Shown: positions 1 to 63,809 of the stretch, in pieces
Layout: each line of letters opens with the position of its first letter
Numbering within the stretch: position 1 is the first letter of the stretch
Origin: Blasia pusilla
Lineage: Eukaryota
Direction: 5' to 3'
DNA length: 64,000 nucleotides
Assembly (NCBI GenBank): GCA_050084515.1
Contig: CM114271.1
Location: 28,954,001-29,018,000 of the forward strand
Position numbers and translations under genes: made by a program
Notes under the pieces: model-generated
Databases searched by the model: none
What the model saw: the letters and a program-made list of their open reading frames with translations, nothing else
What the model was told of the DNA's origin: nothing

Positions 1-499
1 AATAATAGATAATCATAATCAAAATCATAATATACAAGAGTATTCGTTGAATAAAAAGATATATTCTTCAAGATTACAAAATTGTGGGTATCACAAGATC
101 AACGTGTCACTCGACAACTCAATGCGGATCCCTAGACCCTTCAGCGTACCCAAATTGTGCATTCTAAATGAAAAAAAACTCTTACAACTCCTAAGGAACT
201 TGTGTATCCGGCGCGGATGTCGGTGGTTGCTCTGGTGCAACCCCGTCTCAGAAAATAGAACTCTCATCTCCACGTGCAGTACCCGGAACCACGCTCGATG
301 TTGTGGCTATCCTCTCCTGGCGTACCTGCAAAACATCCCAAGAAGTCCAAGGGTGTCTCTCCCGATCACCCTTGGTGTGTTGATCTCCTCAGATCTTGCC
401 CCCAACCACTGCCTCAACCATCTCGGTAGGCATGGGGCTCACCAACGCAATATTTGTGATCTGTCGCATCCTCAAACGACGTTGCTCAGCTACTCCTAA

Positions 500-1920
500 G
501 GTAAAAATCCATGTCAAGGAGTTCAAGTCTATCTCCTGACCCAAGACATGACGTCGTGATGCCTTTGATAGTGATGGTACTATCGTCACTCCTGTGGGAA
601 ATCCCACTGCTTGCTCTCGCTCATTGGCGTTGGGCTCCACCAACATCTGTACTTGGTCATCCCAAACCAAGCCAGGTCCGGCCTCCTTGAATGCATAGGA
701 AGCAGGAAAACTCACCAATGTGAGAAAGGTTGCCCGTGGCCTGCCAATCCTGTTGACCACAGTCAATGGCGATCGATCATCTAGCCTCATTGCCTATGAT
801 CGACGGCCCGGATCCAATATAGAATCCACCAACAAATCGGAGGGGCGCTCCACTCTCACATATGCCCTCCGCAACACCTCATATGGTACCAAGTTGGTCC
901 ACCAAAGTGTGAGAAAACAGAAAGTGAGGAAATCACTAAAATCTTTACAAAACTTAGAGATACAAAGTGGCCTAGTCCGTCTGTGCGCTCATAGAAGAGC
1001 TTCGATGGAACCTGAACATAGAGATAACCCGATATACGAGAATGCACTACCGCTGCGGCTCCCGACTATTTCACTACTCGGGAAACTAGGGTTTTTATCT
1101 ATTTTTCTTTGTTTCTATTAATAGAAAAATTTTGCCAGGGGCTGCGCCCCCGAACCCTTGCCCTGCACCTTATATTGCATCAGGATGCCCCGCACCTTGA
1201 TGCAACATAGGGTAAGATAATCCTAGTAACGCTACTCCGTAGACCACCTATGTCATATTACTATGACTCCTTCGACGTCTAAGTCGGAACCATCAATCTA
1301 GGCTTCTCCTCATACAAAGGGGGTTGATCTGATTAATGGTGCTCAGAGAAGTGGATGTTGAGAATCCAACACAAAGACACGGGCGATGTGCTCGTGAACC
1401 CACATTCGCCGCATCCAACAAAACTATTGTGCCAATCCATGCGCGCATTTGATGTGCACTTGTCACCACATGGGACCTCGAATTGTCCAAAATCGGTACA
1501 TTCTCCAGAATGTATGCTCGAGGACGAGATTGTTTCTCCTGCAAGTGTCACAAGATTCGCATCATCTCCCAAAACAACCTGGACCGAGAGTTAACTAATC
1601 CGCTACCTTGTCCGACACTCGACTAGCCCTGACATAGCCAACCAGCAATTACCAAGTCTATGGTCCCTACCCACTCCAAGTCCTACGCCCCCAACAATGA
1701 AATGTCCCTCGGTAGGGAACTCTGATAACCCTGAATGGCGGACGCAGACAACAAGTCGGGAAAACGGAGGCGTAATTGCGCCACATGGTGAAGTGAAGCG
1801 CGCCTCACAACATCATCAATCTCCACATATAGCTACTGCTACATGGGCACTCCAAAGTGCAAAATAGCAGCTAACCCAGTGTTGATCCCTCCAAAGAGAT
1901 CCAACACCCGAATACCCTTC
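500..1920 (-). pseudogene. C5 cytosine methyltransferase (DNMT3-like) domain of copy 1, split by a solo LTR
   Basis: Minus-strand motifs IRVLDLFGGI (~1885-1915), LVIAGWLCQG (~1627-1657), YILENVP, SRAHRP and EREQAVGFP; contains stops and the 908-1371 insertion. Confidence 0.85.
908..1371. mobile_element. Solo LTR (464 bp), unrelated family
   Basis: TG...CA termini with a perfect 5-bp TSD CAAAG (903-907 and 1372-1376). Removing it restores the continuous motif VIII coding sequence of the methyltransferase. Confidence 0.9.
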
Positions 1921-2319
1921 TCTCGGATGCACCACCCAATCGGGGTGGTGTCCAAAGGGGTCATAGCAGCACTCCTGCCTACTTGGGGTTCCTATGACCT
2001 GTCACACTCTGGTGCAAACGTCTCGCTCCATGCGGTCTGCACATGCTCAATGGCTAAGCGTCGGAGCTCCTCCTTCGAGCCCTAAAGTGGCATGTCTCCT
2101 CCACTGACTGATGCGGCTACCATGACATTCCTCTGCATAGAAATGTCAAGAACGGGAATATCTTCTGCATAGACATATCCCTCAATCAAATCACTAGGCC
2201 AAGTGATGGCATTGCTAAATGCTGCTAAGGTCGCCATCTCTCATGGCCGTCGCTCGATCATTACACATGTGAATCAAACGGGTAATGAGCTAAGGCGCCC
2301 ATCACCTGACTGCCAACGT

Positions 2320-3334
2320 GAGATGTTTTTAGGACCGCTGAGAATATTGAGCGCAAGATGGTGGAGGAGAGCGTAGCCACCATGGGTTCTGGCGAGAGCG
2401 CCACGATTATCGCACCACTGTGCAAAGAACGTGACTTTGAGATAGGTCGACTGTAGCACCACGAGCTCAGGGAGGAGACTGGGAGGCCATTCCAAAGAGA
2501 CCTGCACCTTCATATGCGGCTCAACAGCTGCCGCCTATGATTACTTGTTGGCCATATGGTGGAGCCCATCATCAGCGCGATTGCATTCGTTAGGGTCATG
2601 GACATGTGCCTCAGCATGGCGGAGGAGATGGTGTTGTACTAGGAGGTTATCAATGTGACTATTGTCAGAGGTATGGTCACACACACGCCAAGTGTTTCAG
2701 TTTACACCCTGAGTTACGTCCGGACTGAGGGCTAGAGAGGGCACTAGAGCGAATGGCCGGTCTGGGTGGGCTAGAGATCGTGCACCAGGTGGTCCCGTTG
2801 GGGGACGAGGACCTAGAATTGCCTGACAGGGTGGTGGAGCTGCCAATGGAGGAGGTAGGGTCCCACCACCTAGATGCGTCGAGGGAGATACCGGGCGTGG
2901 GGCTGGGATGGCTACTCAGATACAACAGCTATAGAGTAGATTTCCGCTATGGCATTGAGGTTACCCGATGCCGGATCCGTGGCATCGACATCATATGGAT
3001 TAGCGAGAGATATGGAGGATCCAGGTTGGATGTGCAGGGTTGCCCAAATGGAGGCCGCCTCAGTTGTGATGCGTGGAGCAGCCGAAGAGTTGGATCCACA
3101 GTGAGGGAAAGCCAGGAAAAAGACCAGGCTTCTTCAGTCTTTCACGTTGTCCGAGGCAATGAGGACTCCATTGATGGGTCTTGATCACAGTTCCTAGAGA
3201 GTTGATGATGTTGTTGGTGTGCAGGCACGGAGGGCAATGGGAGAAGCGAGTGCGATGACTCATATTGTTGATGCTCAAGGGGGCAAACCCGATGGGGTTT
3301 GCCTTGGATTACTGGGAGGAGTTAGCGTCCTACA
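2320..3334 (+). other. Inverted internal segment of copy 1 (gag C-terminus with zinc knuckles; protease core deleted)
   Basis: Matches ~45935-46907 then ~47550-47597 on the + strand, whereas both flanks match the element on the - strand. Confidence 0.85.
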
Positions 3335-4644
3335 TAGGGGAGGTGTTCATAAGAAGCACCCTTCCCGCACCCGTGTCCGCAGGGTCCGGTCCAGCATCAC
3401 ATACCATGACTGAATAGCCTAAGCCTCTCTCATCCCCTTAGTGACGTTGATCAACCGGCGCAAGTGAGTGTAAGCCTCACGCAAACTCACCCAGGCGCCT
3501 GTGGAAGTCGTGGATGCTCCACAACTTCTCCGTCCGTACCCCCAGGTAGCTCGCCCTCAACTCAGCGAAGAACTCAACGACGGGGTTGAACCTGGGACGA
3601 ACCCGACTAGATGGTGCAACTGCTCCAATGCGAGTGACTTATCCTAAACCATCACTAGTGGAAGAGGAAGTAGCCTCTCTTGACTCCTCCTCCTTATCTG
3701 GGAACGGCTCCGTCCATGACACATAGTGTGGGTCATAGTATAGTCGCCATGCCTCAATCTCCTAGACATATGTGTGGGAGAGCTCATGGTAATCGTCCAT
3801 GGGCGCCCCCTCTAATTGCTGGAACATACCATTCCATGATATAAACAGGTTGAACTCTCTAGAGTTCCTAGTCCGCTGTGAGTCACACCAACTCCTAAAC
3901 TCCACAATGACTCTATAGTGCCTACAACACCCGAAAACCTACGGGATCCTCGACCCCAGTAGTCCATCTCATACGCCCAACTGGTAGGACCACTCAATGT
4001 GTACGGTGGATCACTAACACACTCCTCTACATGCTCCCCCTTGTCTGAAGACAACACCGAAGGAAATCGAGGTGGTCTCTCACGTGGAGACCCTCGAAAC
4101 CTCGCACCACTCCGGGTAAACCCTCCAGAGCTACTCTCACGTCCACTACCTCGCCTCTCAAAATTCGGAAAGGACGTCGTGATGGCCCTCGTGCCCCTCG
4201 TGACCCTCTCACACTATCACTCCCAATTTTGCGAGTAATCCCTCAATCACTCAAACTAAACATGTGGCACTCAATCTACACTCTCTCCCTGAGACGTGTG
4301 TTGTGGGACAACAAGCAACGTGGTGCGGCAAATCAACTGATCTATCGTCTCATCGACAAACCATCCTCACGAAGGCGCTCTACTAGATCTCACCGATTGA
4401 ACCTAAAAGACGTGACAAGGACAACACGTTCCTCTTTTCCATGCTATGTAGGTCTTGTACTCTACGGGAAGTTTAAATGGACGCTTACGAAGGAATTTTG
4501 TTCTGGTAGAATCGATGCTTGAGCTATCAGAATTTGCATTTGGAAGTTGGAATTTTCCTGGTCAAGATTCCCAATCTTGACCAAACACTTGGTTGGTCCC
4601 AAATTTTTCCATGAGCGCAGAACTAGAAGAAGACGTAGCAGCTG

Positions 4645-40700: not shown

Positions 40701-41777
40701 GTCCTTGTAGTTCCAGCGGCACTGATGGTATGCTGTTGCAAAAAAGGGCGGCATTGCGCTTGTGCCCGTCAAACTAGTGTATTGGCGTATGACGTCCTTG
40801 GGACCAGGACCTATCATGATGAAAACGTCAAATGCGCCACTTTCGGTGATCCAATGCGTATCTATCTTCTTTGGAGAATCCTTGGCTTCCTCACTAAATT
40901 CCGATTTCAAAACGTCGACCGACATCTCAGCAGCGTTCAGCCAGAAAAATCCAGTGGTTCTCTCAACGCTGTGAGCTAGCATGAATGGAATCGAACCATA
41001 CAAGCCAAACGGAGACTCGTGCAGGTACTCGAAGATATCCGAGCTGAACAACCGGTAGGGCTCTGATATGTACTCGGAACCCTTTGTTGGTCGCAGAGAG
41101 AGGCTTGTGGCTCGCTCCGGGATCCCATAGACATGCTCCGCACCGTGGAAGGCGACGTCGAAGCTGATGGATTGCGGACCATTGGGACGACTATCTGTAT
41201 GACTGCGGAAAGTATCATCCCAGTCCTCATCTTCCTTCTTCTCCCGAAATTGCTCATAGTGGAAAAGACCCCGACTGTTCAGGGAAATGAGATTCTCTCT
41301 CCCATCCCTCACATACAACTGGAAAGGCTGATGCAACAACACAACCTCGTGCCCTCCCAGCACCACCATCGAGCCCCCATCCTTCTCGACCACGCGCTGA
41401 ATCCAGAGCTTCTTGTCCTCCAACTCTTTCAGCAGCACATCGGGCACCTCAAACCTCTTCTTCAGGCCCCCGTCCTCCTTCACTTTGATCCGCACAATCC
41501 CACCCCCATACGCAATTATTTGCAAAATCAGCGACCCCTCCTCTCCCTCGATTACCAACCTCGCGCGCACCTTCCCATTCGTCACATTGACCTCGCTCAC
41601 GGCCCAATTCGAGCTCCCAGACGCTCTCTTCCTCGCCTCCTTGCAGAACGACGTCTGATCGCATGTCTTGAACTCCTCCTTCTTCCATCCCTCCGCTCCC
41701 CGAAAACTCGCCGCTCCCAACACAAGCACTAGCACCCCGAGCCAAATCCAATTCCTCTTTCTCCGATCCATCTCCAT
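37796..41777 (-). CDS. RSW3: Glucosidase II alpha subunit (GH31, ER alpha-1,3-glucosidase), 6 exons: 41777-40257, 40074-39801, 39641-39506, 39269-39059, 38660-38454, 38176-37796
   Basis: Signal peptide followed by [36 protein letters not shown]; catalytic WNDMNEP and [27 protein letters not shown] introns in phase. Confidence 0.96.
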
Positions 41778-42995
41778 CGACTCGATCGCTCAACTCGAGC
41801 CTTCCCCACTCGGGCCTCAATCCCCACTCTCTCGTAACCATTGCACCTTCGCCTCCCCGCGCTGAGCGTGAGTCGCCCAGCGGGCGTCGCACGTCTTGGG
41901 ACCGGCCTTCTCCCGTCGTCTACCCGTCCGTCCCGTCGACGGACCTCCGTTCGCGTGCTAACGGAAAGAATAGAGTGGCTTTTCCATGCCCAGGAAGCGG
42001 GACCCCTTTGTTGTGGACACGTCATTCTTGGATGTGTTTTTTTATATGTTTCTTTGTATTTATGGTCCTACATGTATTTTGGTTTTTTCATTTCGGTTGG
42101 GAAGGTTATTTTGTACATGGATGAAAATTTTGGGTCTTCTCTATTGTGGATTTTGTAATCTAATTCGTGTGATTAGGTTTGTGTCGTATCCTCATATACA
42201 AACGTATAAATGTCCTCCCTCGTATTCTATGGTTCCACAATTTACCTTTCCTCGTATTCTTGATATATATAATTAGTGGTTTGTATTTCCGTGGTATCCT
42301 CTATCCTCTCATGTGAGGCAACTTTTTCTTGTCCCTAAAACTTCTCTTCCCTCTCTCGGTCGTAAACTAATGTATTTGATATACAAACTGAAGTGGTGGT
42401 TTGTACGAACTACAAATGTGTCTCTCTCCAACCCTTACCAAAGGGGTTTTTTTAAGGTTGGATTTTGGGATTTCTTAGTTTATGTTCCGTTTTATTAGGT
42501 GGGGTTTGGGAGTTAAAATGTTTATTTCCTACATGTTTCCCCTATTAGTATGCTTCGTTGGGTAGGTTATTTTGGTTTGTGTGATTTTTGCCTAAGGTGG
42601 ATTCTGTGTAATAAGATATTAATGATATTCGTGTGACTTTAATAACAACCCTTAATATTTTACACATAAAGCCACCTTGGAGCCTCTACCAATTCCGTCC
42701 CAAAACTTTTGATCCGTCCAATTCTCTCATCGTGCATTCTTTCATGGTGGTGGTATGTATATCTCGTGTACAAACTAGTGGTGGCTTTTATATCGATATG
42801 TGAACTTCAAGATTTTTCCTTTAAGCATTTTCTCTCTCACCCCTCTCAAAGGGTCGCTTCATCTATCTATATAATTAAACTAGGATGGGATTAAAGAAAA
42901 CCTAAGCGTTCTTCTAATATTGACACGTGTTAGTTTAAGAGAGAGTTAAGATAGGAGGAGACAATTAAATGAGAAAGAGAAAAGAGGACCGAAAG

Positions 42996-43509
42996 TGTCA
43001 CTTCTTTTAGAATAGATCGGCGAGATCTAGTAGAGAGCCTTCGGAGATACTGGAGGGCAGCCTCAGGAGGTTGAGGATGACCTGTTGAGGCCACGGGTAA
43101 TCTGAAAGAGAGCAGATTTCCCCTTCGTTTCAGCTCATTTGGAGCCATATAGAGAAACTTACTATTTTGGGTAAGTTTCCATTTAGAGTATCATTGACTT
43201 TCAACTTTGGGAAGTGGCCCTTGACCCGTTACAACAGGTCAATAGCCAAAGAGATGACCTACGAGCATAGGTTACCGAGGAGAGAGCTTGGGAGAGGGAA
43301 GGGGGTATACCTCCAAGAGAGAGAGTTTGAGAGCTCATTATCTCTTTGTTGAACCTCTAGGCATGAGGCGGCGGAGCTATGGTCCTCCTTGCCTTGTGTG
43401 TATAACCCAAGCCTCTCAGGAGAGTGGGTTTGGTTTGACATGAGAAAGAGTGCACACCTTTGAGAGTTATGGTGTGAGATGGTGTAGAGAGAGATTGGAT
43501 CTTACTTTA
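42996..43509 (+). repeat. Terminal repeat A1
   Basis: Direct repeat of 52505-53003 and 56664-57150; similarity to A2 stops at GGATCTTACTTTA. Confidence 0.88.
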
Positions 43510-45058
43510 CAAAGAGAGAATGAGAGAATGAGAGAGCTTCATGGGGGAGCTCGCTGGTCACTCGCTATTTTTGCAGGTTGGGGACCATGTTCCCCATTTA
43601 GCGGCTCATGGGAGTGCTCACCGGAGCAAGGGTTTCTTTGATTGTTCTTTGCATTTGCCAATTTTTCGTATGGAAGAGTGGCGCGCGGAAGCGCTACCCA
43701 ATTTTTTTATAGGGATTGAGTATGGGGGCGGGTTGCCCCATGCTGGTGCTCTTGGAAACACCATGTAGCTTGCTGATTTGTATTTTTATAGGTTTTACAT
43801 TTTGGTTGGGAGAAATCAACACGGAAGCGCTGCCAAATTTAATATAAGAGAAAGAGACATTGGGCTTTACAGCAGTCCCTGTTTGTTTTTACTGGAATGT
43901 CCGATTCTAAATATTCTTTGACGCTGTTGTAGATCGTGAAGCTTTGCACATTGTGCAATAAAAAATGTGTAATTTGGAGTTGGGAGCAAAAAGTTATGGT
44001 CAATCTTGCAAAACTCCCATCGCTAGGCGATTTTTAGGGTTAAATTGATCAAACCCTAAACCAGTCGTCGCTCTCATAATCACCGTCAACAGTCCACCAT
44101 CTTTGGTCAACCTTCACCATCAACGGTCAACCGTCACTGTCAATGGTCCACCGTCCTTTGTCCACCCTTTGGTCGCCATTGCCGCCATTACGGAGTGGAG
44201 GGTCTTCCACAACGTTCGTTGATTCTCTAACTTGCGTCGCCACCACGTACTTTGTTTTGGCCACCACCGTCATCGCAATTTCGTCATCAACCACTGATGG
44301 TAGATGACCTCCAGTTATGGTGTTTGAGTTTTGATTTCATGCTGCTATGTTGTGATCGGTAGCCGCTCGATGACAATCGAGTACCGTGCCGTGACGCCCG
44401 TAGTTGCAACGCGCCGCCGATTGCTGCGTCGTGCCGCTCGTGGCCGCGCCACACCGTCTAGATCGCGGAACCGCTCCTTCACTAAGGAGCACAGCGTGTG
44501 AATTTCTGATTGAGGAGGATATACCGCCGAGTGCCGCATCCCATTCCCGAGTGTCGTGCTGTTTGTAGCCGTTCCGTGCCGCTAGTGTCGCACCGGACCG
44601 CTCGACCCGCACCGCACATCGAGGAGGTTGAGCAACGTCAGTACGAGAGGAGTACAACTTGCTGATTGGAGGAGTTGTCTTCACGACTGAGTGGGGGTTG
44701 AGATTTGCAGTTGTTGAGGAGCGACATCGACATGTGTTCAGGTTACCCATTCTGGTCCTTTACCCTGCACGTGTGAGGGATTCTGGGATTTGGGTAATTT
44801 ATTTGGCGATATTGGGTTGTGTGGATGCTGAGAGCATCATTCATGTCTATGGTTTAGGGGACATAGACCTGTGTGGCATGTCTGGAGTTGAGGGTAGGTT
44901 GTCGATGAGATGATAGCGTGGTCAATTTGCCGCACCAGGCCGTGTGTTGCCGCACGTTACACGTCTAAGGGAGGGAGAGTGTAGATCGAGTGTCGCATGT
45001 TTGGGATGAGTGATTGAGGGGTTAATCATGAGGTTGAGAGTGATCCGGTGGAAGGGGC

Positions 45059-46600
45059 ATGAGGGTCATCACGGGGTCCGTTTGGGACTTTGAGAGGTGA
45101 GGTGGTAAACCCGAGAGTAGCTCTAGAAGTTTTACGTAGAGTGGCACGAGGTTCCGAGGGTCTCCACGTGAGGGACCACCTCAGCCTCCTTCTGTGTCAT
45201 CGTCATACAAGGGGGAGGGTGTAGAGGAGTTTGTGAGCACATTGCCACATATTGTGAGTGGTCCTACCAGTTGGGCGTACGAGATGGACGACCGAGGTAG
45301 AGGACCGCGTAGGTTTTCACGTGCAGTAGGCACGATTGAGTTGCACGATCTCATAGCAAAGTTTAGGAGTTGGTGCGACTCTCAATGGGCCATGAACTCT
45401 AGAGAGTTCAACCTATTTACAGCATGGAACGGTATGTTCCAGCATTTAGAGGGGGCGCCCATGAACGATTACCATGAGTTCTCCCACAGATATACCCACG
45501 AGATTGAGCCATGGCGACTCTACTATGACCCACACTATGTGTCATGGACGGAGCCGTTCCCAGATGAGGAGGAGGATTCAAGAGAGGCTACTTCCTCTTC
45601 CACTAGTATTGTTTTAGGAGGGTCACTCGCAATGGAGCAGTTGCACCATCTAGTCGAGTTCGTCCCAGGTTCAACCCCGTGGTTGAGTTCTTCGTTGAGT
45701 TGAGGGCCTAGCTAGCAAGGGGTACGGATGAAGAAGTTGCGGAGCATCCATGACTTCTAGAGGCGCCCGGGTGAGAGTTTATGTGAGGCTTATACGCGCT
45801 TGTGTCGGTTGATCAATGTCACTCAGGGGCTGACGGAGGCTCAGGCTATCCAATCATGGTGCGCGATGTTGGACCGGACCTTGCGAACATGGGTGCGGGA
45901 GGGGATGCTTCTTATGAACACCTCCCCTACGTTGAGAGATGTTTTTAGGACCGCTGAGAACCTTGAGCGCAACATGGCGGAGGAGAGCGTAGCCACCATG
46001 GGTTCTAGGCCAGAGCAGTCACGATTGGTTGCACCACTTGTACAGCAACGTGGACTCCAAGATAGGTCGACTGCGGCACCACGAGCTCAGGGAGGATATC
46101 GGGAGGCCGTGCCACAAAGACCTGCGCCTTCATATGCGGCTCAGCAGCAGCCGCCTTCTATTACTTGTTGGTCATGTGGTGGAGCCCATCATCAGCGCGA
46201 TTGCACTCGTCAAGGTCATGGACGTGTGCCTCAGCATGGAGGAGGAGATGGTGCTCCACAAGGAGGTTATCAGTATGACTATTGTCACAGGTATGGTCAT
46301 ACACGCGCCACGTGTTTCAGTTTACATCCTGAGTAATGTCCGGACCGATGGCTAAAGAGGGCACCAGAGCGAGTAGCCGGTCCGAGTGGGCCTAGAGATC
46401 CTGCACCAAGTGGTTCCGTTGGGGGACGAGGAGCTGGAGTTGCCCGACATGGTGGTGGAGCTGCCCGTGGAGGAAGTAGAGTACCACCACCTAGATGCAC
46501 TGAGGGAGACGTCGGACGGGAGGCTGGGATGGCTGCTCAGATACACCAGCTACAGGTGTAGATTGCAGATTAGGCATTGAGGTTACCCGATGCCGGATCC
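45059..46600 (+). pseudogene. Gag with two zinc knuckles (copy 2)
   Basis: ORFs 45194-45703 and 45800-46336 are in the same frame; knuckles CWSCGGAHHQRDC and (Y/C)DYCHRYGHTRATC. Start position approximate. Confidence 0.8.
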
Positions 46601-47199
46601 GTGGCATCAACATCATATGGAGCAGCCAGAGATATGGAGGATCCTGGTTGGATGTACGCGGTTGCCCAGATGGAGGCCGCCGTAGTTGTGACGCGTGGAG
46701 CAGCCGTTGAGTTGGATCCACAGCGAGGGGAAGCTAGAAAACATACTATGCTTCCTCAGTCTTTCACGTTGTCCGAAGTGATGAGGACCCCATCAATGGG
46801 TCCTCATCAAAGTTCCTTGAGAGTTGGTGATGTTGTTGGTGTGCAGGCACGGAGGGCGATGGCAGAAGTGAGTGCAACAACACCTATTGCTGATGCTCAG
46901 GAGGGGCATGTGTCGAGCACATTGTTGGGAGCAGCCACCGTTGTGTACCGCACTCCTTTATTTTCTGCTTTTGATGTTATGACGTTGGGGGGTACGCCCG
47001 CCGAGGCTTTTCGGCTGGCCGCTTAACTATGTGAGCGCGGAGCTGGAGTTCCTGCATCACGTTCAGAGGTGATTGCAGAAGACGTGATGGACTTGCCCTT
47101 GGAGCGGATGCTCGGGCCGTCCACGTCAGATTCATGGCAAGCAGCGGTTGCTAGGATGGCGGAGATGCCCGCTAGACCCGCGATAGAGCGTGCCATGGC

Positions 47200-47580
47200 T
47201 TCTCCTAGTGTTGTGTTGCTGGATAACCGAGGAGATGTTTTCCAGTTGGTGAGTCCCGGAGGTAGAGCTTTTAGTCCGCAGCACGTCTTGTTGGATTCAG
47301 GATCGCAACCCTTGATGTTGGGGAAAGCGTCATTCAGAGGATTGGGCTTGACGAGAGCCGATGTGGAGCGTTGTCCATTCCGGATACAGACATCCTTGGG
47401 TGGAGCGAGTACCACATAGTATATCACCCGACAGGAGGTCGTGGTGAGGATTCGCCCGAGACATCCTACACATGAGTCCGTGGCGCAAGCCAAGGCGATA
47501 GTGACTAATGCAGAGTCCTACGACGTCTTGGTTGGTGGAGCAGTGTTATACCCGATGGGGTTTTCCCTGGATTACTGAGA
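47200..47580 (+). pseudogene. Retroviral-type aspartic protease (copy 2)
   Basis: VLLDSGSQ active site (~47285-47310) and downstream YDVLVG motif, in the same frame as gag. Confidence 0.8.
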
Positions 47581-47988
47581 GGAGTCAGGGTCATACAGAC
47601 CACGATGGCAGTCAGGTGATGGGCGCCTTAGCCCATTATCCGTTCGATTCACAAGTACAGTGATCGAGCGACGGTCAGGAGAGGTAGCGACCTTAGCAAC
47701 ATTTAGTAGTGCCATCACTTGGCCTAGTGATTTGATTGAGGGACATGTCCATGCAGAGGATACTCCCGTTCCTGACATTTCTATGGAGAGGAGTGTTATG
47801 GTAGCCGCATCATTCCGTGGAGGAGCTCGACTAAGGAGCTTCGAAGATTGGCAGATGAGCACGTGTAGACCACGTGGAGCGAGGCGTTTGCACCGGAGCG
47901 TGACGGGTCTGAGGAACCCAAGGTAGCAGGGAATGCTACAATGACACCCTTGGATACCACACCCATTGTGTGGTGTATCCCGGAGGAG

Positions 47989-48930
47989 GGTATTCGAGTG
48001 TTAGATCTCTTTGGAGGGATTAGCACCGGGTTAGCTGTTGTTTTGCAGGCATGAGTGCGAGTGCAGCAGTACCTGTATGTGGAGAGTGATGATGTTGCAA
48101 GGCGCGTCTCACTACGACATATGGCGCAGTTACGCCTACGTTTTCCGACTTATTGTCTGCGTCCGCGGTATAGGGGTACCAGAGTTCCCTATTGACAAAT
48201 ATTTCATTGTTGGGGGCGTAGGACTTAGAGCGGGTAGGGACCATCGATTTGGTCATTGTCGGGTGGCCATGTCAAGGCCAATTAGGTGCTAGACAAGACA
48301 GCGGGTTGGCGGACACTCGGTCTAGGTTATTTTGGGAGATGTTGAGGGTCTTACGGCAGTTGCAGGAGCACCAATCTCGTTCTCCTCCCTACATTCTGGA
48401 GAATATGCCGATCTTAGGAGACTCCAGGTCACGGGTGGTGACAAGTGCTCATCAGGTGTGTGCCTGGATCCGCCCAGAAGTGTTCTTGGATGCGGCGAGT
48501 GTAGGTTCTAGAGCCCATCGCCCGCGTCTATGGTGGACCAACTTGGTGCCCCATGCGGTGTTACAAAGGGCGTATGCGAGAGTGGAGCGCCCCTCCCATT
48601 TGTTAGTGGATTCCATTCTGGATCCAGGTCGTCGATCATAGGTAGTGAGGTACGATGATCGACCACCGTTGAATGTGGTCAATAGGGTAGGCAGGCCGCG
48701 GGCAGCCTTGCCCACGTTTGTGAGTTTTCTCGCTTCCTATGCATACAAGGAGGTCGGTCCTGGCTTGGTTTGGGATGACTAGGTTCAGCGGTTGGTGGAG
48801 CCCAACGCCGACGAGAGAGAGCGAGCAATGGGATTTCCCACAAGAGTGACGACAGTACCGTCAGTGTCTGAGGCAACACGATGCCATGTCTTGGGTCACG
48901 CGATGGACCTGAACTGCTTGACATGGATCC
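47989..48930 (+). pseudogene. DNMT3-like C5 cytosine methyltransferase domain (copy 2)
   Basis: Motifs I GIRVLDLFGGISTG, II YLYVE, IV DLVIVGWPCQG (catalytic PC intact), VI YILENM, VII FLDAASVG, VIII RAHRPRLWWTNL, IX ERERAMGFP, X RCHVLGH. Contains stops and frameshifts. Confidence 0.93.
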
Positions 48931-49253
48931 TCAACTTGGGAGTGGCTGAGCAGCGTCGGATGAGATTGCGACATATCACAGCGGTTGCGTGGGTGAGCCC
49001 CATGCCTACCAAGACGATGGAGGCAGTGGCTGGGGGCGAGACCCAAGGAGATGTACACACCAAGGGAGATCGAGAGAGACACCCTTGGACTTCTTGGGAT
49101 GTTTTGCAGGTATGCCAGGAGATGATAGCCACATCATCGAGCGTTGTTCAGGACATTGCATGTAGAGGAGATCAGAGTTTGCAATTGGTTGCACGAGAGC
49201 GGCCGAGTGTTGTTGTTCGAGACAGGGTTGCACCATAGCAACCACCGATACCC

Positions 49254-50640
49254 ATGCCGGAGAGTCCTACCGTAGTCACGACGGAGATTTGGAAGCCAGA
49301 TATGGGCCCTAAGTTGACAGGAGGAGAGCGGCGTCGCATAACTCAGTTCCTCAAGAGTTATAGGAGTTGCTTTGCGTTTAGCATGGAGGATTTGGGTACG
49401 TTGAAGGGACGGGGGATCCGCATTGAGTTGTCCAATGATACGCCGATCTTCCGATGACCCTAGAGGTACAATGATATGGAGAGGGCTCTGATTCAGAGTA
49501 GGAGCCAGGACTTGGTCGGAGCAAGACTAGTAGAAATGTCGCATGGGGAGTATGCATCTGCCACTATCATGCCCGCCAAGGAGGATGTGCATGGCAATTG
49601 GATGGATAGGCGGATGTGTGGGGATTACCGACCTATCAATCGACAGACAAAGTCCGAAAGGTATGCCATGCACACCCCCGAGGAGATCTTTGATGCGATT
49701 GATCACGCAAAGGTCTTCAGTTCATTGGATTTGTGAGCCGGATACCATCAACTGCCTATCAGATTGGAGGACAGGCAAAAGATGGCATTTTGGGGCATCG
49801 ATCCCCACGGGAAGGATTGTTTGTACTAGTGGCGGTTCATGCCATTTGGGTTAAAGAACGCCCCGGCTGAGTTTCAAAGGGTCATGGATAGGATCTTGGC
49901 TGGTCTGGATTTTGCTAGGTGTTATATTGATGACATCATAGTCTTTAGCGCCACGGTTGAGGAGCATGAGCGACATCTAGAGGAGGTGTTTCGACGATTG
50001 CAATTACATGGGTTGAAGCTACATCCAGGAAAATGCAAGTTCTTCTACGACCAGATTGAGTACTTGGGTCATACGATATACCTTGGGGGCCTTGGTGTTC
50101 AGCAGACAAAGGTAGAAGCTATCTCACGCATTCCACGCCCTACAGATTTGAGCCGTGTTCGCGCATTCATGGGATTGGCGAACTTCTATCGGCGGTACGT
50201 CAAGGGATTCAGTTTGATTGCAAAGCCCCTGACCTTGCTGACAAAGGTGGATCATGAGTGGCACTGGGGGGATGAGGAAGAGCGAGCATTTCAGTTGCTC
50301 AAGGACAGGGTGACGTCCGCGCCCATCTTGAGGAGACTGATGAGGGGGTATCCTTTCTAGTTGCACACAGATTGGAGCATGTTGGGGCTTGGAGCGGTGC
50401 TCACCCAGCATGATGATGAGGGTAGAGAGTTTGTGGTGGCTTACGCTAGCCCCTAGAACAATGCTGCAGAGGCGAAGTACACCTCGTATGAGGGTGAGTG
50501 TTTGGCTGTAGTGTAGGCTATCGCGTATCTCATGTGTTACTTATTCGGAAACCCCTTTACCATCATCACTGATCATCAACCACTTAAGTGGTTGATGGAT
50601 TCCGACAAGCTTACAAGGAAGCTTGCGAGATGGGCTCTGT
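49254..50640 (+). pseudogene. Reverse transcriptase and RNase H (Gypsy-type, copy 2)
   Basis: RMCGDYRPIN, DL*AGYHQ, MPFGLKNAPAEFQ, CYIDDIIVFS, YLGH, LHTDWS, ITDHQPL; same frame as the methyltransferase C-terminus. Confidence 0.95.
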
Positions 50641-50899
50641 TTAGGCTATGGAGAGCCAGAGTATGGAGACTTCGATGGCGAGGTCTAGTGGAGAGTCCTT
50701 GGATCCCGAGGCCAGTGAGGAGACGAAAGGTGGCTGAGATATTCATGATGATGGAGTAGTCTTGGAGTACCTTTGGACTAGCAACGTTGCGAGCACCGTG
50801 GGTGCTAGAGAGCGGGATCGGATCCTACAGCGGGCCAGACGATTCCGTTGGGAGGGGACACGTGTTTTGAGGGTTTGGGAGGATGGCAGAGTACGCGTA

Positions 50900-52040
50900 G
50901 TGCCGCATCCTTTGTAGAGAGCACGACTAGTGCAGCATGCCCACGAGGAGTTGGGTCACTTTGGGGTGAAGCGGACGTACAGCTTGCTCCAGATTCAGTA
51001 TTGGTGGCGAGGCATGTAGTAACTATCCGCAAGTTTCAGCAGTTTGTTACTAGGTGCATAGTGTATGATCAAGTCCGAGCATCATTCAATGCTCCAACTC
51101 CACAGTTGCATCCATTATCGATCATGAGCTTAGGGTATAGATGGAGTTTGGATTTTGCAGGACCTTTGCCTTTGACGGAGCGTCACAGTCGTTATGTGTT
51201 GGTGATGGTCTGGCACTTCTCGAAGTGGATCGAGTTGGTTGCATTGCCTGACAAAGCGAGTGAGGAAGTAGCTTATGCCTTCCTTGACAGATTGCTGAGT
51301 CATTATGGCACACCATCTGAGGTGTTGACAGACCAGGGTACCGAGTTTGGCGGTGAGTTCCAGGCCGTGTGTGATCAGGCGCTGATTGACCACCGCACAA
51401 CTTCGCGAGATGATCCTAAGGCGGATGGATTAGCGGAGAGAGTTGTGCAAATGATGAAGAGGGGTTTACACAAGTATGGCTTGCAAAGAGATCACCTAGG
51501 AGATTGGGACCTCCAATTGCCGTGGTTGGCGATGGGATACAGATTCAGCATGCAGGCATCCTTAGCGTGTTTTTCACCGTACTTGCTACTTTATGGCCGA
51601 GAGCGAGATTTACCTGCGGCCATTCGTCGAGATGTTGGTGAGGTGCTGGACCTTGATGACCTAGATATATGGATGCGAGCATGTTCTCAGAGGGCTGAGT
51701 TATTTCGGAGAGTGATGCCCATGGCGTTCGAGAACTTGGCAATTGCGCAGCACCGGGATACGTTGCGGTATGCGACTATTCGGGGTGGTGGTTATCGATC
51801 AACTATCCAGAGGTTTGATCAGGGAGACTATGTCTACTTGCAGCTGATGGCACTGACGACGTTGGATGTGACTACAGGGTGCACTATCCTGAGAGTGCGT
51901 GACGTTTTGCCATCCGGTGTTCTCTTGCTGGAGGGACACGATGGTATGGTATGGAAGGACCACGTGCGTAATTGTGCGCCATGTCACGTTCCTAACATTG
52001 ATGGTACATTAGATCCGAGCTCAGCACTAGTTCTTGTAGG
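50900..52040 (+). pseudogene. DDE integrase (copy 2)
   Basis: HEELGHFG zinc-binding region; core WSLDFAGP, LTDQGTEF, DGLAER. Confidence 0.93.
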
Positions 52041-52047
52041 CTTGCGT

Positions 52048-52188
52048 TGTATGTTGTGCAATTTTGCTCGTGGTGCGGCCACGATACTAGTCTGTAATAG
52101 ATGTTCGAGGGGTTGGCATATGGCTTGTTTGATGCCACCTCTCACTAGGGTTCCTCGGGGATGATGGATGTTTCCCAGATGTACATAG
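52048..52188 (+). pseudogene. C-terminal PHD finger on integrase (copy 2, degenerate)
   Basis: CMLC...VCNRC...WHMAC...LTRVPRG*WMFPRC. Confidence 0.85.
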
Positions 52189-52374
52189 AGGAGATACTAG
52201 GTAGGTTTTGATTCCGACTTTTTCTGTGATATGGATGACAGGAAGGCGACTAACGATGGGGCCATATGAGCACCCGGCCTTCTTGCTCTTAGCGTCCTCG
52301 AGATGTATGTCGTGGTAGGTAGGGATAGATGGCTATCTGGAGTTAGAGGGACTTAACCACCAGCTAGGGGGGCG

Positions 52375-52502
52375 ATTGGAGATATTTTGGTACTTCTCGC
52401 CTCTATGTATGGATGCCATGAGTTAGCATGGGATTGTGTGTGTTTGTGTGTGTGTTTGATGACAACAATGTATGTTGTGTAGCGATGTGTATGCGCACGA
52501 TA
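52375..52502 (+). repeat. Terminal repeat B1 (128 bp)
   Basis: Near-identical direct repeat of 53003-53130; preceded by the purine run AGGGGGG. Confidence 0.9.
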
Positions 52503-52504
52503 GT

Positions 52505-53003
52505 TGTCATGACAGTTAGGATAGATCGGTGGGATCTAGCAAAGCATTTGCACGAGTAGTGGGCCCACGAGGTTGAGGATGACCAGTTGAAGCCTCAGGA
52601 AACCTGAGAGTGTAGGTTTCCCCTTCGTTTCGGCTCATTTGGAGCCATATAGAGAAACTTACTATTTTGGTAAGTTTCCATATTGGGGATAGTTGACTTT
52701 CTACTTTGGGAAGTGGCCCTTGACCCACTACAACAGATCAAGAGCCAAGGAGGTGACCTACGACCATAGGTTGAGAGGGTTTGGAAGAGGGAAGGGAGTA
52801 TACCTCCAAGAGAGAGAGCTTGAGAGCTCATTCTCTCTATATTGAACCTCTTGGCATAAGGCGGCGGAGCTATGGTCCCTTGCCTTGTAAGTGTAACCCA
52901 AGCCTCTTATTAGGAGAGTGGGTTTTGTTTGACATGAGAGAGGGTGCACACCTTTGAGAGCTATGGTGTGAGATGGTATAGAGAAAGATTGGATCTTACT
53001 TTA
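52505..53003 (+). repeat. Terminal repeat A2
   Basis: Starts TGTCA 2 bp after the end of B1; direct repeat of A1. Confidence 0.88.
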
Positions 53004-53130
53004 TTGGAGATATTTTGATACTTCTCGCCTCTATGTATGGATGTCATGAGTTAGCATGGGATCGTGTGTGTTTGTGTGTGTGTTCGATGACAATGATGTA
53101 TGTTGTGTAGCGATGTGTATGCGCACGACA
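53003..53130 (+). repeat. Terminal repeat B2 (128 bp), element 3' end
   Basis: Repeat of B1, ending GCGCACGACA. Confidence 0.9.
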
Positions 53131-53279
53131 GAGACGCTAAATTAGAATTTTTAAAAATTTGAAGATCGCCCTAGATTACCCAACACTCTTGTCCTTTTTA
53201 ATTGAGTTCAATATTTCAAGTTTTAATTGGGTGTGTTTCGTATTGTTTCTAATTTGAGTGTTGGATTTTGAAAACTACT

Positions 53280-59370: not shown

Positions 59371-59587
59371 GACGAGTGTTATGGTAGCCGCATCATTCCG
59401 TGGAGGAGAGGTGCCGTTGTGGGGCTCGACTGAGGAGCTTCGACGATTGGGAGATGAGCACGTGTAGACCGTGTGGAGCGAGGCGTTTGCACCGGAGCGT
59501 GACGGGTCTGAGGAACATGAGGTAGCAGGGAGTGCTACGATGACACCCTTGGATACCACATCCATTGTGTGGTGTACCCGGGAGGAG

Positions 59588-63800: not shown

Positions 63801-63809
63801 TGCTTGCAT

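What the first reader, a model, noticed from the sequence alone, without database searches (positions are those of the whole stretch)
42996..53130. Gypsy-type retrotransposon family carrying its own DNMT3-like cytosine methyltransferase inside the polyprotein
Seen in sequence: between protease (LLDSGS) and RT (YIDD) lies a full set of C5-MTase motifs in linear I-X order: VLDLFGGISTG, YVE, DLVIxGWPCQG, YILENV, LDAASVG, AHRPRLWWTNL, ERERAMGFP, RRHVLG. It is intron-free and at the same position in copies 1, 2 and 3. Its C-terminal half shares a frame with RT (ORFs 48249-50759 in copy 2; 59932-61200 in copy 3). Established: these motifs match DNMT3 wording (IRVLSLFDGIATG, DLVIGGSPC, FENV, AHRARYFWGNL, EMERVFGFP) and are not circularly permuted as in plant DRM. 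Retrotransposon-borne DNMTs have been reported in dinoflagellates and charophyte algae (de Mendoza et al. 2018); I know of no functional characterisation in a land-plant element with this architecture. Inference: the enzyme would be cut from the polyprotein and packaged with RT, so it could methylate new cDNA or the insertion site for self-regulation, camouflage or protection.
Basis: partly seen in the sequence, partly recalled or inferred. Interest (0 to 1): 0.95.

Follow-up and report, generated by a model that had tools for sequence, protein, structure and literature searches.

The report
Liverwort Gypsy retrotransposon carrying DNMT3 methyltransferase
Three decayed copies of a jumping gene in a liverwort genome carry their own DNMT3-type DNA methyltransferase; this kind of element was described in a green alga in 2018, so it is a new land-plant member of a known class rather than a new class.

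Summary
Three copies of one Ty3/Gypsy-like family each carry a linear, non-permuted C5 cytosine methyltransferase between protease and RT (Pfam PF00145; family profile hits DNMT3A at 2e-27; predicted fold matches DNMT3A/B/C). All three window copies are dead.

The host gene in the window points to a liverwort. The element matches the Gypsy-DNMT3 class of de Mendoza 2018 (Klebsormidium) in domain order, A-coding-B-A-B repeats and homology across MTase, RT and integrase. Relatives sit unremarked in Marchantia, Riccia, Calypogeia and Sphagnum annotations.

Additional findings:
- A conserved in-frame UAG in the tobamovirus leaky-stop context (UAG-CAR-YYA) separates Gag-PR-MTase from RT-RNaseH-integrase-PHD. 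It occurs in 2 of 3 window copies and 45 of 53 relatives, and one relative has a 7.2-kb frame with only this stop.
- The family is very high-copy, and sense-strand RNA from other copies is present.
- The integrase ends in a PHD finger.
- Decay is biased to C>T at CHG and CG sites.

Methyltransferase activity is untested; the Klebsormidium domain gave no signal in yeast. Novelty: new member of a known kind. Interest 0.5.

The parts
42996..43511 (+). Copy 2, terminal repeat A1 (starts TGTCA, ends ..TTTACA)
   Evidence: 84% identical to A2 at 52505-53003 and to the copy 3 repeat at 56664-57150; boundaries read
45140..46336 (+). Copy 2, gag region in two ORF pieces with CCHC-type zinc knuckles
   Evidence: Translations. 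Homologous to the N-terminal part of Marchantia ORF1 models. A canonical CCHC motif is at 59131-59172 in copy 3. No Pfam gag family was hit
47027..47419 (+). Copy 2, aspartic protease region (LLDSGS at 47288)
   Evidence: The homologous region of L043 ORF1 hits Asp_protease_2 weakly (E 2e-4, below the cut-off). The window piece alone has no Pfam hit
47980..48960 (+). Copy 2, DNMT3-type C5-MTase domain. Motif I at 47998, PCQ at 48261, ENM at 48393, AHRPRLWWTNL at 48513, ERERAMGF at 48813, motif X at 48891. It is broken by one frameshift (about 48100-48140) and by in-frame TAG codons
49236..49244 (+). Conserved in-frame stop with a leaky-stop context, TAG CAA CCA, between MTase and RT
   Evidence: The same codon and context are at 60835 in copy 3. 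It is present in 45 of 53 metagenome relatives that span the junction. It is the only stop in the 7.2-kb frame of L043. The UAG-CARYYA motif is taken from PMC5382211 (passages)
49464..50360 (+). Copy 2, reverse transcriptase (YIDD at 49923)
   Evidence: RVT_1 E 1e-22
50361..50759 (+). Copy 2, RNase H. It lacks about 175 bp at 50641-50644 that copy 3 has at 62239-62417
   Evidence: RT_RNaseH E 7.9e-10; (loose ends)
50809..52164 (+). Copy 2, DDE integrase with a C-terminal PHD finger (52048-52128), in a different frame from RT in this copy
   Evidence: rve E 7.3e-14 and PHD E 2.2e-5. PHD reaches 2.6e-10 in the intact relative L043
52360..52374 (+). Polypurine-like tract (AGCTAGGGGGGCG) directly upstream of B1
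   Evidence: Conserved in the window, L050, L047 and L042. Its role as a primer site is inferred
52375..53131 (+). Copy 2, 3' repeat block B1 (52375-52503), A2 (52505-53003) and B2 (53003-53131)
   Evidence: B1 and B2 are 94.6% identical. The alignment score is 115 against a shuffled maximum of 23. The same A...B-A-B layout occurs in L050, L047 and L042
56664..64000 (+). Copy 3: repeat A 56664-57150, gag 58010-59190, MTase 59468-60530 (GWPYQG at 59861), TAG CAA CCA at 60835, RT 61063-61955, RNase H 62115-62529, integrase-PHD 62582-63923. It lacks the protease and is cut off by the window end
1..4369 (-). Copy 1: MTase 2036-194 with an insertion of about 465 bp at 908-1373 (GWLCQG); gag pieces 4111-3350; an inverted gag piece at 2320-3285 on the plus strand; GAG in place of the conserved TAG. 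It runs off the window start

Best explanation
The region holds three old, inactivated copies of a bryophyte lineage of the Gypsy-DNMT3 retrotransposons. That class was first described as KnitGypsy-Dnmt3 in Klebsormidium nitens.

Layout, shown by sequence: repeat A, gag with CCHC knuckles, protease, DNMT3-type C5-MTase, in-frame UAG in the UAG-CAR-YYA context, RT, RNase H, H2C2/DDE integrase, PHD finger, polypurine tract, then repeats B-A-B.

How it most likely works (inferred):
- Ribosomes usually stop at the UAG and make Gag-PR-MTase.
- A minority read through and make Gag-PR-MTase-RT-RH-IN-PHD.
- The MTase therefore enters the particle at Gag-like abundance.
- There, or in the nucleus, it methylates the element's new cDNA de novo.
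- The PHD finger on the integrase reads histone tails to steer insertion.

The window copies themselves do nothing. They carry frameshifts, many stops and, in two of three copies, a lost catalytic PC motif. Their decay is biased to C>T at CHG and CG sites, as expected for host-methylated DNA.
For: Identity of the domain.
- PF00145 hit.
- The family profile hits DNMT3A at 2.2e-27, far above DRM, DNMT2 and bacterial MTases.
- The AF2 model has core pLDDT mostly above 85, and Foldseek top hits are DNMT3A/B/C at E about 1e-20.

Class membership.
- K. nitens KFL_009030040 matches at E 4.8e-54 with 43% identity.
- It has the same PR-MT-RT-RH-IN order, and homology extends to RT (4e-39) and IN (1e-92).
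- The A-coding-B-A-B repeats occur in the window and in 3 of 5 tested relatives, as in the paper's legends for the Symbiodinium elements and Fig. 4c.

Host.
- The GH31 exon is 75/74/73% identical to Marchantia paleacea, Riccia and Calypogeia, and about 60% to vascular plants.
- In the tree the window MTase sits in a 100/100 clade of 13 rows with all named bryophyte sequences.

Leaky stop.
- TAG CAA CCA is at the same codon in copies 2 and 3.
- 45 of 53 relatives have a stop followed by Q and P, L or S.
- Divergent lineages keep the CAR-YYA pattern with different codons (CCA, TTA, TCA) while the flanking residues differ.
- L043 has one frame open from 976 to 8226 with only this TAG. Its ORF1 holds protease and MTase, and its ORF2 holds RT, RNase H, integrase and PHD.
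- Marchantia and Calypogeia gene models end exactly at this position.

Constraint.
- dN/dS of the MTase among relatives has a median of 0.51 over 310 pairs, and 0.22 at dS 1-1.5. RT gives 0.35 and IN 0.59.

Family activity.
- RNA reads cover gag to IN with the first mate on the minus strand in 29 of 30 (X22) and 30 of 30 (X23) bins.
- 2276 of 2567 and 2070 of 2366 reads are only 90-95% alike, so they come from other copies.
- 20,411 and 144,464 DNA contigs were laid.

Decay.
- Per-site C>T in copy 2 is 10/162 at CG, 15/125 at CHG and 10/475 at CHH.
Against: - No enzymatic activity is shown for any Gypsy-DNMT3. The K. nitens domain gave no methylation in yeast, which the authors call inconclusive (PMC5890265 section 10).
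- Readthrough is inferred from conservation and context only. The largest relative group has CAA CCC, which departs from YYA at the last base, and 9 loci have TAA rather than TAG.
- The K. nitens gene model P0034 runs through the junction without a stop, and I could not tell whether a predicted intron hides one.
- My tree has no host DNMT3 or DRM outgroup, so DNMT3 ancestry rests on score ranking, on fold and on the published K. nitens tree.
- dN/dS of 0.5 is weaker than the below-0.2 value reported for K. nitens, and it was measured on metagenome relatives, not on this genome. I computed pairwise values only, not internal branches.
- How a DDE-integrase element maintains A...B-A-B ends is unexplained, and no target-site duplication is visible for copy 2.
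- The RNA evidence is at family level and comes from runs that share only a coded species label.
Confidence: 0.8

Rival explanations
1. The MTase domain is conserved but does not methylate DNA. It could act on RNA, as DNMT2 does, or serve as a structural or DNA-binding module of the Gag-PR-MTase protein.
For: The KnitGypsy-Dnmt3 domain gave no DNA methylation in yeast. The same paper raises RNA methylation for another TE-borne DNMT. Sitting in the Gag-level product would suit a structural role.
Against: The catalytic motifs are kept across bryophyte, Klebsormidium and alga-like relatives: FGG, PCQ, ENV, the RxR-type motif VIII, and motifs IX and X. DNMT3A/B/C are much the closest by sequence and fold, whereas DNMT2 scores 4e-10. 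Human DNMT3B was also silent in the same yeast assay.
Confidence: 0.2
2. The enzyme acts mainly in trans on host chromatin, or at the insertion site, rather than on the element's own cDNA. Examples would be marking the neighbourhood or dampening the element's own transposition rate. This is not exclusive of the main reading.
For: The family is very high-copy and transcribed. The MTase is made in the abundant non-readthrough product. A PHD chromatin-reader finger sits on the integrase. These options are discussed in PMC5890265 section 11.
Against: There are no methylome data for this host. K. nitens, which carries such elements, has an ordinary plant-like methylome. Nothing in the sequence separates cis from trans action.
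Confidence: 0.2
3. The MTase is passive cargo. On this view a host DNMT3 fragment was captured once and is carried without function.
For: Copy 2 against copy 3 gives dN/dS of 1.5 in the MTase.
Against: RT shows the same neutral value in those two dead copies (1.17). Among relatives the MTase has dN/dS 0.51, falling to 0.22 at depth, similar to integrase. The domain is kept with its motifs from Klebsormidium to liverworts and mosses, and in 211 clusters at E<=1e-30.
Confidence: 0.04
4. TAG is a sense codon (Gln) in this organism, so the copies would be more intact than they look.
For: 12 of 13 in-frame stops in the translated MTase pieces are TAG, and many align with CAG (Gln) in a sister copy.
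Against: The copies also carry frameshifts, TGA stops and lost catalytic residues. The excess of TAG follows from C>T changes at CHG sites, 15/125 against 10/475 at CHH. The repeats of copy 2 are only 84% alike, so the copy is old. The host groups with liverworts, and I know of no nuclear code change in that group (recalled).
Confidence: 0.02

Closest known systems
KnitGypsy-Dnmt3 of Klebsormidium nitens (de Mendoza et al. 2018, PMC5890265), later cited as 'streptophytes (Gypsy-DNMT3)' in bioRxiv 10.64898/2026.05.21.726589
   Same: It has Gypsy-type pol domains with a DDE integrase and an intron-less DNMT3-type MTase upstream of RT in the coding region. It has the A-coding-B-A-B repeats. Homology is direct across MTase (E 4.8e-54), RT and integrase.
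   Different: The host here is a liverwort and the copy number is very high, whereas the paper notes few copies in K. nitens. The window MTase lies in a separate, strongly supported bryophyte clade. The conserved UAG-CAR-YYA stop after the MTase and the PHD finger on the integrase do not appear in the passages I read. Figure 4c and the supplements, which I could not see, may show the ORF structure.
SymbioDIRS-Dnmt3 of Symbiodinium (same paper)
   Same: It has a DNMT3-type domain in pol, the A-coding-B-A-B repeats, and two alternative domain orders within one lineage. Here too the relatives show two orders, PR-MT-RT-RH-IN and RT-RH-MT-IN.
   Different: Those elements use a tyrosine recombinase. 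This one has an H2C2/DDE integrase. Their DNMT domains were shown to methylate CG in yeast; this lineage has no such result.
Host DNMT3A/3B/3C (solved structures)
   Same: It is the best sequence and fold match, with linear motif order and a short target-recognition region.
   Different: Identity is 20-23%. Motif IV reads PCQ where the DNMT3A alignment shows PCN. Pfam found no PWWP or ADD domain. The domain is embedded in a retrotransposon ORF.
Tobamovirus-type (type I) leaky stop, UAG-CARYYA (Skuzeski 1991, as cited in PMC5382211)
   Same: A UAG is followed by CAA CCA in the window copies, by CAG TTA and CAA TCA in other lineages, and the downstream ORF is in frame.
   Different: Here it lies in a retrotransposon, between MTase and RT. 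The largest relative group has CAA CCC. Readthrough has not been measured.
Chromoviruses (Ty3/Gypsy elements with a chromodomain at the integrase C-terminus)
   Same: A small chromatin-reader module is fused to the end of the integrase.
   Different: The module is a PHD finger, not a chromodomain. The comparison with chromoviruses is from recall and from the introduction passage of the 2026 preprint.

Membership tests
Gypsy-DNMT3 retrotransposons (KnitGypsy-Dnmt3 type) | Ty3/Gypsy-type pol domains: protease, RT, RNase H and a DDE integrase | tested here: met
   RVT_1 1e-22, RT_RNaseH 7.9e-10 and rve 7.3e-14 in copy 2. The full set, plus Integrase_H2C2, is found in the intact relative L043.
Gypsy-DNMT3 retrotransposons (KnitGypsy-Dnmt3 type) | Intron-less DNMT3-type MTase within the element's coding region, upstream of RT | tested here: met
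   It is present in 3 of 3 window copies. 14 of 15 long metagenome loci show the same order, as do K. nitens P0034 and Marchantia P0016.
Gypsy-DNMT3 retrotransposons (KnitGypsy-Dnmt3 type) | DIRS-like repeat layout A-coding-B-A-B | tested here: met
   It is present in window copy 2 and in L050, L047 and L042, with scores of 97-115 against a shuffled maximum of 23. It was not seen in L053 or L066. The definition comes from the paper's legends.
Gypsy-DNMT3 retrotransposons (KnitGypsy-Dnmt3 type) | Sequence homology to the K. nitens element beyond the MTase | tested here: met
   Window pieces against P0034: MTase 9.6e-53, RT 4.1e-39, IN 9.8e-93.
Gypsy-DNMT3 retrotransposons (KnitGypsy-Dnmt3 type) | Purifying selection on the MTase (the paper reports Ka/Ks below 0.2) | tested here: inconclusive
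   Relatives give a median of 0.51, and 0.22 at dS 1-1.5, comparable to IN at 0.59. Most copies are decaying, which inflates the ratio. Window copies 2 against 3 give 1.5, as RT does at 1.17.
DNMT3 clade of C5-MTases | Groups with DNMT3 rather than DRM, DNMT1, CMT, DNMT2 or bacterial MTases | tested here: inconclusive
   Score ranking and fold both favour DNMT3 strongly. No tree with host DNMT3 could be built, because none came back.
DNMT3 clade of C5-MTases | Linear (non-permuted) motif order I-X with the catalytic Cys in motif IV | tested here: met
   The order is linear in all copies. The PC dipeptide is intact in 1 of 3 window copies (copy 2) and in the relatives.
DNMT3 clade of C5-MTases | N-terminal PWWP or ADD reader domains, as in animal and plant host DNMT3 | tested here: not met
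   Pfam scans of the window pieces, L043 ORF1 and P0008 show neither domain. A passage of PMC12344493 says protist and algal DNMT3s also lack companion domains.
DNMT3 clade of C5-MTases | De novo 5mC activity | not testable with these tools
   The only published test of this lineage was negative and inconclusive.
Type I programmed readthrough (UAG-CARYYA) | UAG followed by CAR-YYA, with the downstream ORF in frame | tested here: met
   TAG CAA CCA is at 49236 and 60835, and RT is in the same frame. L043 has a single TAG in a 7.2-kb frame.
Type I programmed readthrough (UAG-CARYYA) | Measured readthrough product | not testable with these tools
   This needs a reporter assay or proteomics.
DIRS/PAT-like tyrosine-recombinase retrotransposons | Tyrosine recombinase in place of a DDE integrase | tested here: not met
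   Pfam finds rve and Integrase_H2C2. No tyrosine-recombinase family appears in the pieces scanned.
Chromoviruses | Chromodomain at the integrase C-terminus | tested here: not met
   A PHD finger is found instead: 2.2e-5 in the window and 2.6e-10 in L043.

The most novel reading that the evidence does not exclude
In bryophytes the DNMT3 domain is the C-terminal module of a Gag-PR-MTase ORF1, closed by a conserved tobamovirus-type leaky UAG. The element would then make its methyltransferase in Gag-like excess over RT and integrase. In this liverwort the family is very high-copy and transcribed. A retrotransposon-borne DNMT3 could therefore be a real source of de novo methylation in a land plant, acting on its own cDNA inside the particle or in trans on host chromatin. 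The PHD-tipped integrase would choose where copies land.
Probability: 0.3. Interest if true: 0.8.

Novelty: new member of a known kind. Interest (0 to 1): 0.5.

Why it matters
What a retrotransposon gains from carrying a silencing-type enzyme has been open since 2018, and the one test on the Gypsy lineage failed for unclear reasons. This work shows three things.
- The same lineage lives in liverworts and peat mosses, including Marchantia polymorpha, where complete Gag-PR-MTase reading frames are annotated as ordinary hypothetical genes.
- The family can be very abundant and transcribed.
- The enzyme sits before a conserved leaky stop, which predicts its stoichiometry.

Together these give a tractable land-plant model and concrete, cheap experiments. 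There is also a practical warning: DNMT counts and DNMT3 "expansions" in bryophyte annotations include transposon ORFs.

Tried and rejected
- No whole genome is held for the window. I therefore could not census intact copies or MTase-less members of this RT lineage in the host.
- A tree with host DNMT3/DRM outgroups could not be built. None of the three large searches listed a host DNMT3, because transposon copies fill the lists.
- Indexed RNA holders: no RNA holder is listed for the stretch. The RNA evidence comes only from laying raw reads.
- Cluster look-up for taxon names: only 1 of 10 long polyprotein clusters carried an organism name, Scenedesmus sp..
- The TAG=Gln recoding idea was rejected (see rivals).
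- A nested insertion of a host DNMT3 gene, or an assembly chimera, was rejected. The domain is at the same place in 3 window copies and in 14 of 15 long relatives, and it is in frame with pol.
- Target-site duplication: the flanks of copy 2 (GAAAG and GAGAC) do not match, so none can be called.
- No primer-binding site was sought systematically.
- dN/dS for integrase between copies 2 and 3 (0.73) is unreliable. The repeat offsets (11765 and then 11762) show that a 3-nt indel shifts part of that comparison.
- Literature: searches found no paper naming a liverwort, moss or Marchantia Gypsy-DNMT3, nor the Marchantia gene identifiers. Searches found none on a PHD-tipped Gypsy integrase, or on split direct repeats in a DDE-integrase element. 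Supplements are closed. Supplementary Figs 13-14 of PMC5890265 and the supplementary DNMT tables of PMC12344493 may already list bryophyte copies.

Full report
WHAT IS THERE. A self-comparison shows three copies of one family.
- Copy 2 runs from 42996 to 53131 on the plus strand.
- Copy 3 runs from 56664 to the window end. It lacks the equivalent of 46511-47785, which holds the protease.
- Copy 1 lies on the minus strand at 1-4369. It is rearranged and carries an insertion of about 465 bp inside the MTase.
- The copies are 79-91% identical to each other, and the two A repeats of copy 2 are 84% identical, so these are old insertions.

Pfam on the ORF pieces of copy 2 gives DNA_methylase (E 1.6e-6, above the curated cut-off), RVT_1, RT_RNaseH, rve and a PHD finger at the end of the integrase ORF. 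The motif-I piece, the C-terminal MTase piece, the protease piece and the gag pieces gave no hit on their own.

THE COPIES ARE DEAD. Copy 2 has a frameshift between motifs I and IV, and copy 3 has one between motifs VI and VIII. The catalytic PC motif reads GWPCQG in copy 2, GWPYQG in copy 3 and GWLCQG in copy 1.

In a three-copy alignment of the MTase region, 35 of 59 private changes in copy 2 are C>T or G>A. Per site they hit CHG (15/125) and CG (10/162) more often than CHH (10/475), and copies 3 and 1 show the same order. This explains why 12 of 13 stops in the translated MTase pieces are TAG aligned to CAG. It fits deamination of host-methylated DNA, so I reject a TAG=Gln code. Copy 2 against copy 3 gives dN/dS 1.5 for the MTase and 1.17 for RT. 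Both domains are drifting neutrally in these copies.

WHAT THE DOMAIN IS. Single fragments already rank DNMT3A first in the PDB (1.3e-5), ahead of DRM2 and M.HhaI. A profile of 16 MTase sequences (window pieces, intact metagenome ORFs and representative proteins) gives the following:
- DNMT3A 2.2e-27, DNMT3C 2.7e-25, DNMT3B 2.2e-24.
- Tobacco DRM 1.7e-14, DRM2 about 1e-12.
- DNMT2 4e-10, M.HhaI 1.7e-9.
- No DNMT1 or CMT chain at or below 0.01.

An AF2 model of the closest intact relative has mean pLDDT 76, with the core mostly above 85 (L004 ORF, 58% identical to copy 2). Foldseek matches it to DNMT3A/B/C, with E about 1e-20 and TM 0.79-0.85 normalised to the target. The motif order is linear. 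I could not build a tree with host DNMT3, because none came back from the searches.

WHOSE GENOME. No genome is held. A 520-aa exon of glucosidase II alpha (GH31) at 40227-41789 on the minus strand is 75, 74 and 73% identical to Marchantia paleacea, Riccia sorocarpa and Calypogeia fissa, and about 60% to vascular plants. The host is therefore a liverwort that is not close to those three.

RELATIVES.
- A word-indexed search found 40 longer proteins. The best are from Calypogeia fissa and Marchantia polymorpha (many gene models), then Sphagnum fallax and K. nitens KFL_009030040 (E 4.8e-54, 43% identity).
- A second search added M. paleacea, Riccia sorocarpa and Sphagnum troendelagicum.
- The exhaustive profile search counts 3322 clusters at E<=1e-3, 697 at <=1e-10 and 211 at <=1e-30. 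Many are polyproteins of 1000-3456 aa.
- Of 10 such clusters looked up, one carries an organism name: pol of Scenedesmus sp..
- 75 metagenome loci encode relatives. Of the 41 longer loci I examined out of those 75, only 2 have an ORF over 1000 aa across the MTase, so most copies elsewhere are also decayed.
- 14 of 15 long loci have the window's order gag-PR-MT-RT-RH-IN, and one (L065) has RT-RH-MT-IN.
- Of the 18 proteins compared (17 polyprotein models and one MTase-only model), 4 show PR-MT-RT-(RH)-IN (K. nitens, Marchantia, Sphagnum and one unnamed). Eleven show RT-RH-MT-IN, among them the Scenedesmus pol. Two show PR-MT only and one shows MT only.
- In an MTase tree of 27 rows the window sits in a 100/100 clade of 13 rows with every named bryophyte sequence. 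K. nitens and the RT-RH-MT-IN group lie outside it. The root is unknown.

COMPARISON WITH THE PUBLISHED CLASS. De Mendoza et al. 2018 (PMC5890265; I read passages of section 9 and all of sections 10 and 11) describe KnitGypsy-Dnmt3. It is an intron-less Dnmt3 in the pol ORF of a Gypsy element, with Ka/Ks below 0.2 and repeats "the same as that of a DIRS retrotransposon". For the Symbiodinium elements that layout is spelled out as A-coding region-B-A-B.

Copy 2 has exactly this layout: A1 42996-43511, B1 52375-52503, A2 52505-53003, B2 53003-53131. The flanks of A2 align with a score of 115 against a shuffled maximum of 23. The same holds in L050, L047 and L042 (97-99) but not in L053 or L066. 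Both A and B have TG...CA ends, and a G-rich polypurine tract precedes B1 in all four. Window RT and integrase pieces also match the K. nitens protein, at 4e-39 and 1e-92.

So the element is a member of that class. Later papers speak of "streptophytes (Gypsy-DNMT3)" (preprint passage) and of DNMT3 embedded in retrotransposons in streptophytes (PMC12344493 passage). No paper found names liverworts, mosses or the Marchantia gene identifiers. Supplements could not be seen.

A CONSERVED LEAKY-TYPE STOP. One of the stops is not decay.
- Copies 2 and 3 share TAG CAA CCA at the same codon (49236 and 60835), about 90 codons after motif X and about 75 before RT. Copy 1 has GAG there.
- Of 53 metagenome loci that span the MTase-RT junction, 42 have a stop followed by Gln and Pro, Leu or Ser within 80 codons upstream of RT in RT's frame. 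Three more (L043, L045, L063) have it further upstream.
- The contexts among the 42 loci and 2 window copies are TAG CAA CCC (28), TAA CAA CCC (9), TAG CAA CCA (3), TAG CAG TTA (2), TAG CAA TCA (1) and TAG CAA CTC (1).
- Divergent lineages thus keep the stop and the CAR-YYA pattern while the surrounding residues differ.
- UAG-CARYYA is the type I readthrough signal of tobamoviruses (PMC5382211, passages).
- L043 has one frame open from 976 to 8226, broken only by this TAG. Its ORF1 has protease and DNA_methylase. Its ORF2 has RVT_1, RNase H, Integrase_H2C2, rve and PHD.
- Marchantia models P0008 (1278 aa, starting at Met, with gag, PR and MTase), P0010 and P0012, and Calypogeia P0006, all end at this point. 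Models P0016 and P0025 skip it as if it were an intron.

I conclude that the element encodes Gag-PR-MTase as its main product and RT-RH-IN-PHD as a readthrough extension. Readthrough itself is inferred.

IS THE MTASE KEPT BY SELECTION? Among metagenome relatives with one-frame hits (27, 25 and 14 of 75 loci for MTase, RT and IN), I computed pairwise NG86 values for pairs with 0.05<dS<1.5, dropping codons with stops or gaps. Median dN/dS is 0.51 for the MTase (310 pairs; 0.22 at dS 1-1.5), 0.35 for RT (227 pairs) and 0.59 for IN (65 pairs). The MTase is therefore about as constrained as the integrase, even though most copies are decaying. These are pairwise values on other genomes, not internal-branch estimates in this host.

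IS THE FAMILY ALIVE IN THE HOST? DNA runs of one coded organism hold about a third of the sampled words of the stretch. I laid two RNA runs with the same species label, and two DNA runs, on 44284-52400 at 90% likeness or more.
- 2567 and 2366 RNA reads were laid, from about 6% and 12% of the runs. Of these, 2276 and 2070 are only 90-95% alike, and 5 and 0 are 99% or more alike. The reads therefore come from other copies.
- They cover all 30 bins. Depth in the MTase bins (first mate on the minus strand) is 12-38 and 11-30.
- The first mate lies on the minus strand in 29 of 30 and 30 of 30 bins. In the usual stranded libraries that means sense RNA.
- 20,411 and 144,464 DNA contigs were laid, so the family is very abundant.
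- In run X1, where other copies differ from this one, they have G for its A at 147 places and C for its T at 120 places. The reverse differences number 44 and 45. This again points to C>T decay of this copy.
- Other copies carry a one-base indel near the copy 2 frameshift, so the frame is continuous elsewhere.
This is family-level evidence from runs known only by a coded label.

MECHANISM AND LIMITS. Shown here: the architecture, the DNMT3 affinity, the class membership, the conserved stop, the constraint, the abundance and the transcripts. Inferred: readthrough, packaging of the MTase at Gag level, methylation of cDNA, and PHD-guided integration. The only experiment on this lineage, the K. 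nitens domain in yeast, gave no methylation. The authors call it inconclusive because human DNMT3B also failed in the same assay. How a DDE-integrase element keeps A...B-A-B ends is unexplained, and no target-site duplication is visible for copy 2.

VERDICT. It is a new bryophyte member of a known class, not a new class. The leaky-stop layout, the PHD finger, the two domain orders and the presence of intact ORF1 copies in Marchantia are useful additions that I did not find in print. Interest 0.5.

Noticed in passing
window 42996-43511 and 52375-53131; L050, L047, L042: The element has split direct repeats (A ... B-A-B), although it encodes a DDE integrase rather than a tyrosine recombinase. 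Both A and B have TG..CA ends, 1-2 nt spacers separate the units, and a G-rich polypurine tract precedes B1. No target-site duplication could be called. How such ends are regenerated is unexplained.
   Followed up: partly
window 47785-49179, 59368-60775, 259-2136(-): Decay of the copies is biased to C>T/G>A at CHG and CG sites. In copy 2 the counts are CHG 15/125, CG 10/162 and CHH 10/475. This makes nearly all acquired stops TAG derived from CAG, and it fits long-term host CHG and CG methylation of these copies.
   Followed up: yes
P0033, P0037, P0039, P0051, P0065, P0070, P0075, P0093, P0128, P0143, P0189; L065: A sister group of elements carries the same MTase between RNase H and integrase (RT-RH-MT-IN-PHD) in one ORF. 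One member is annotated as pol of the chlorophyte Scenedesmus sp. The MTase has therefore moved within pol, or was captured twice, in green-lineage Gypsy elements.
   Followed up: partly
window 52048-52128 and 63801-63890; L043 ORF2 residues 990-1034: A PHD finger sits at the C-terminus of the integrase, where chromoviruses carry a chromodomain. It is conserved in many relatives. Searches found no paper describing this.
   Followed up: partly
P0008 (Mp_4g09160), P0010 (Mp_8g17980), P0012, P0006 and others: Marchantia polymorpha and Calypogeia fissa annotations list the Gag-PR-MTase ORF1 of these elements as ordinary hypothetical proteins. Other gene models splice over the conserved stop. DNMT gene counts in bryophytes may therefore be inflated by transposon ORFs.
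   Followed up: partly
window 40227-41789 (-): This is a host gene exon of 520 aa from a GH31 glucosidase II alpha subunit. It is most similar to liverwort proteins (73-75%), and it lies about 1.2 kb from copy 2.
   Followed up: yes
window 5996-8184 (+), 13373-13630 (+), 30637-31513 (+): Other transposon remnants are present. There are Copia-type gag, pre-integrase and SH3-like pieces at 5996-8184. A protease-like piece 50% identical to that of copy 2 lies at 13373-13630. A stretch 67% identical to the internal end, B, A and B block of copy 2 lies at 30637-31513 and is probably the 3' end of a related element.
   Followed up: no
window 908-1373 (-) and 2320-3285 (+): Copy 1 carries an insertion of about 465 bp inside the MTase, at the AHRPR motif, and a gag segment that is inverted relative to the rest of the copy.
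   Followed up: no
window 43509-44284 and 50641-50644: Copy 2 has about 775 bp after repeat A that copy 3 lacks. It in turn lacks about 175 bp at the RNase H-integrase junction that copy 3 (62239-62417) and the transcribed copies have.
   Followed up: no
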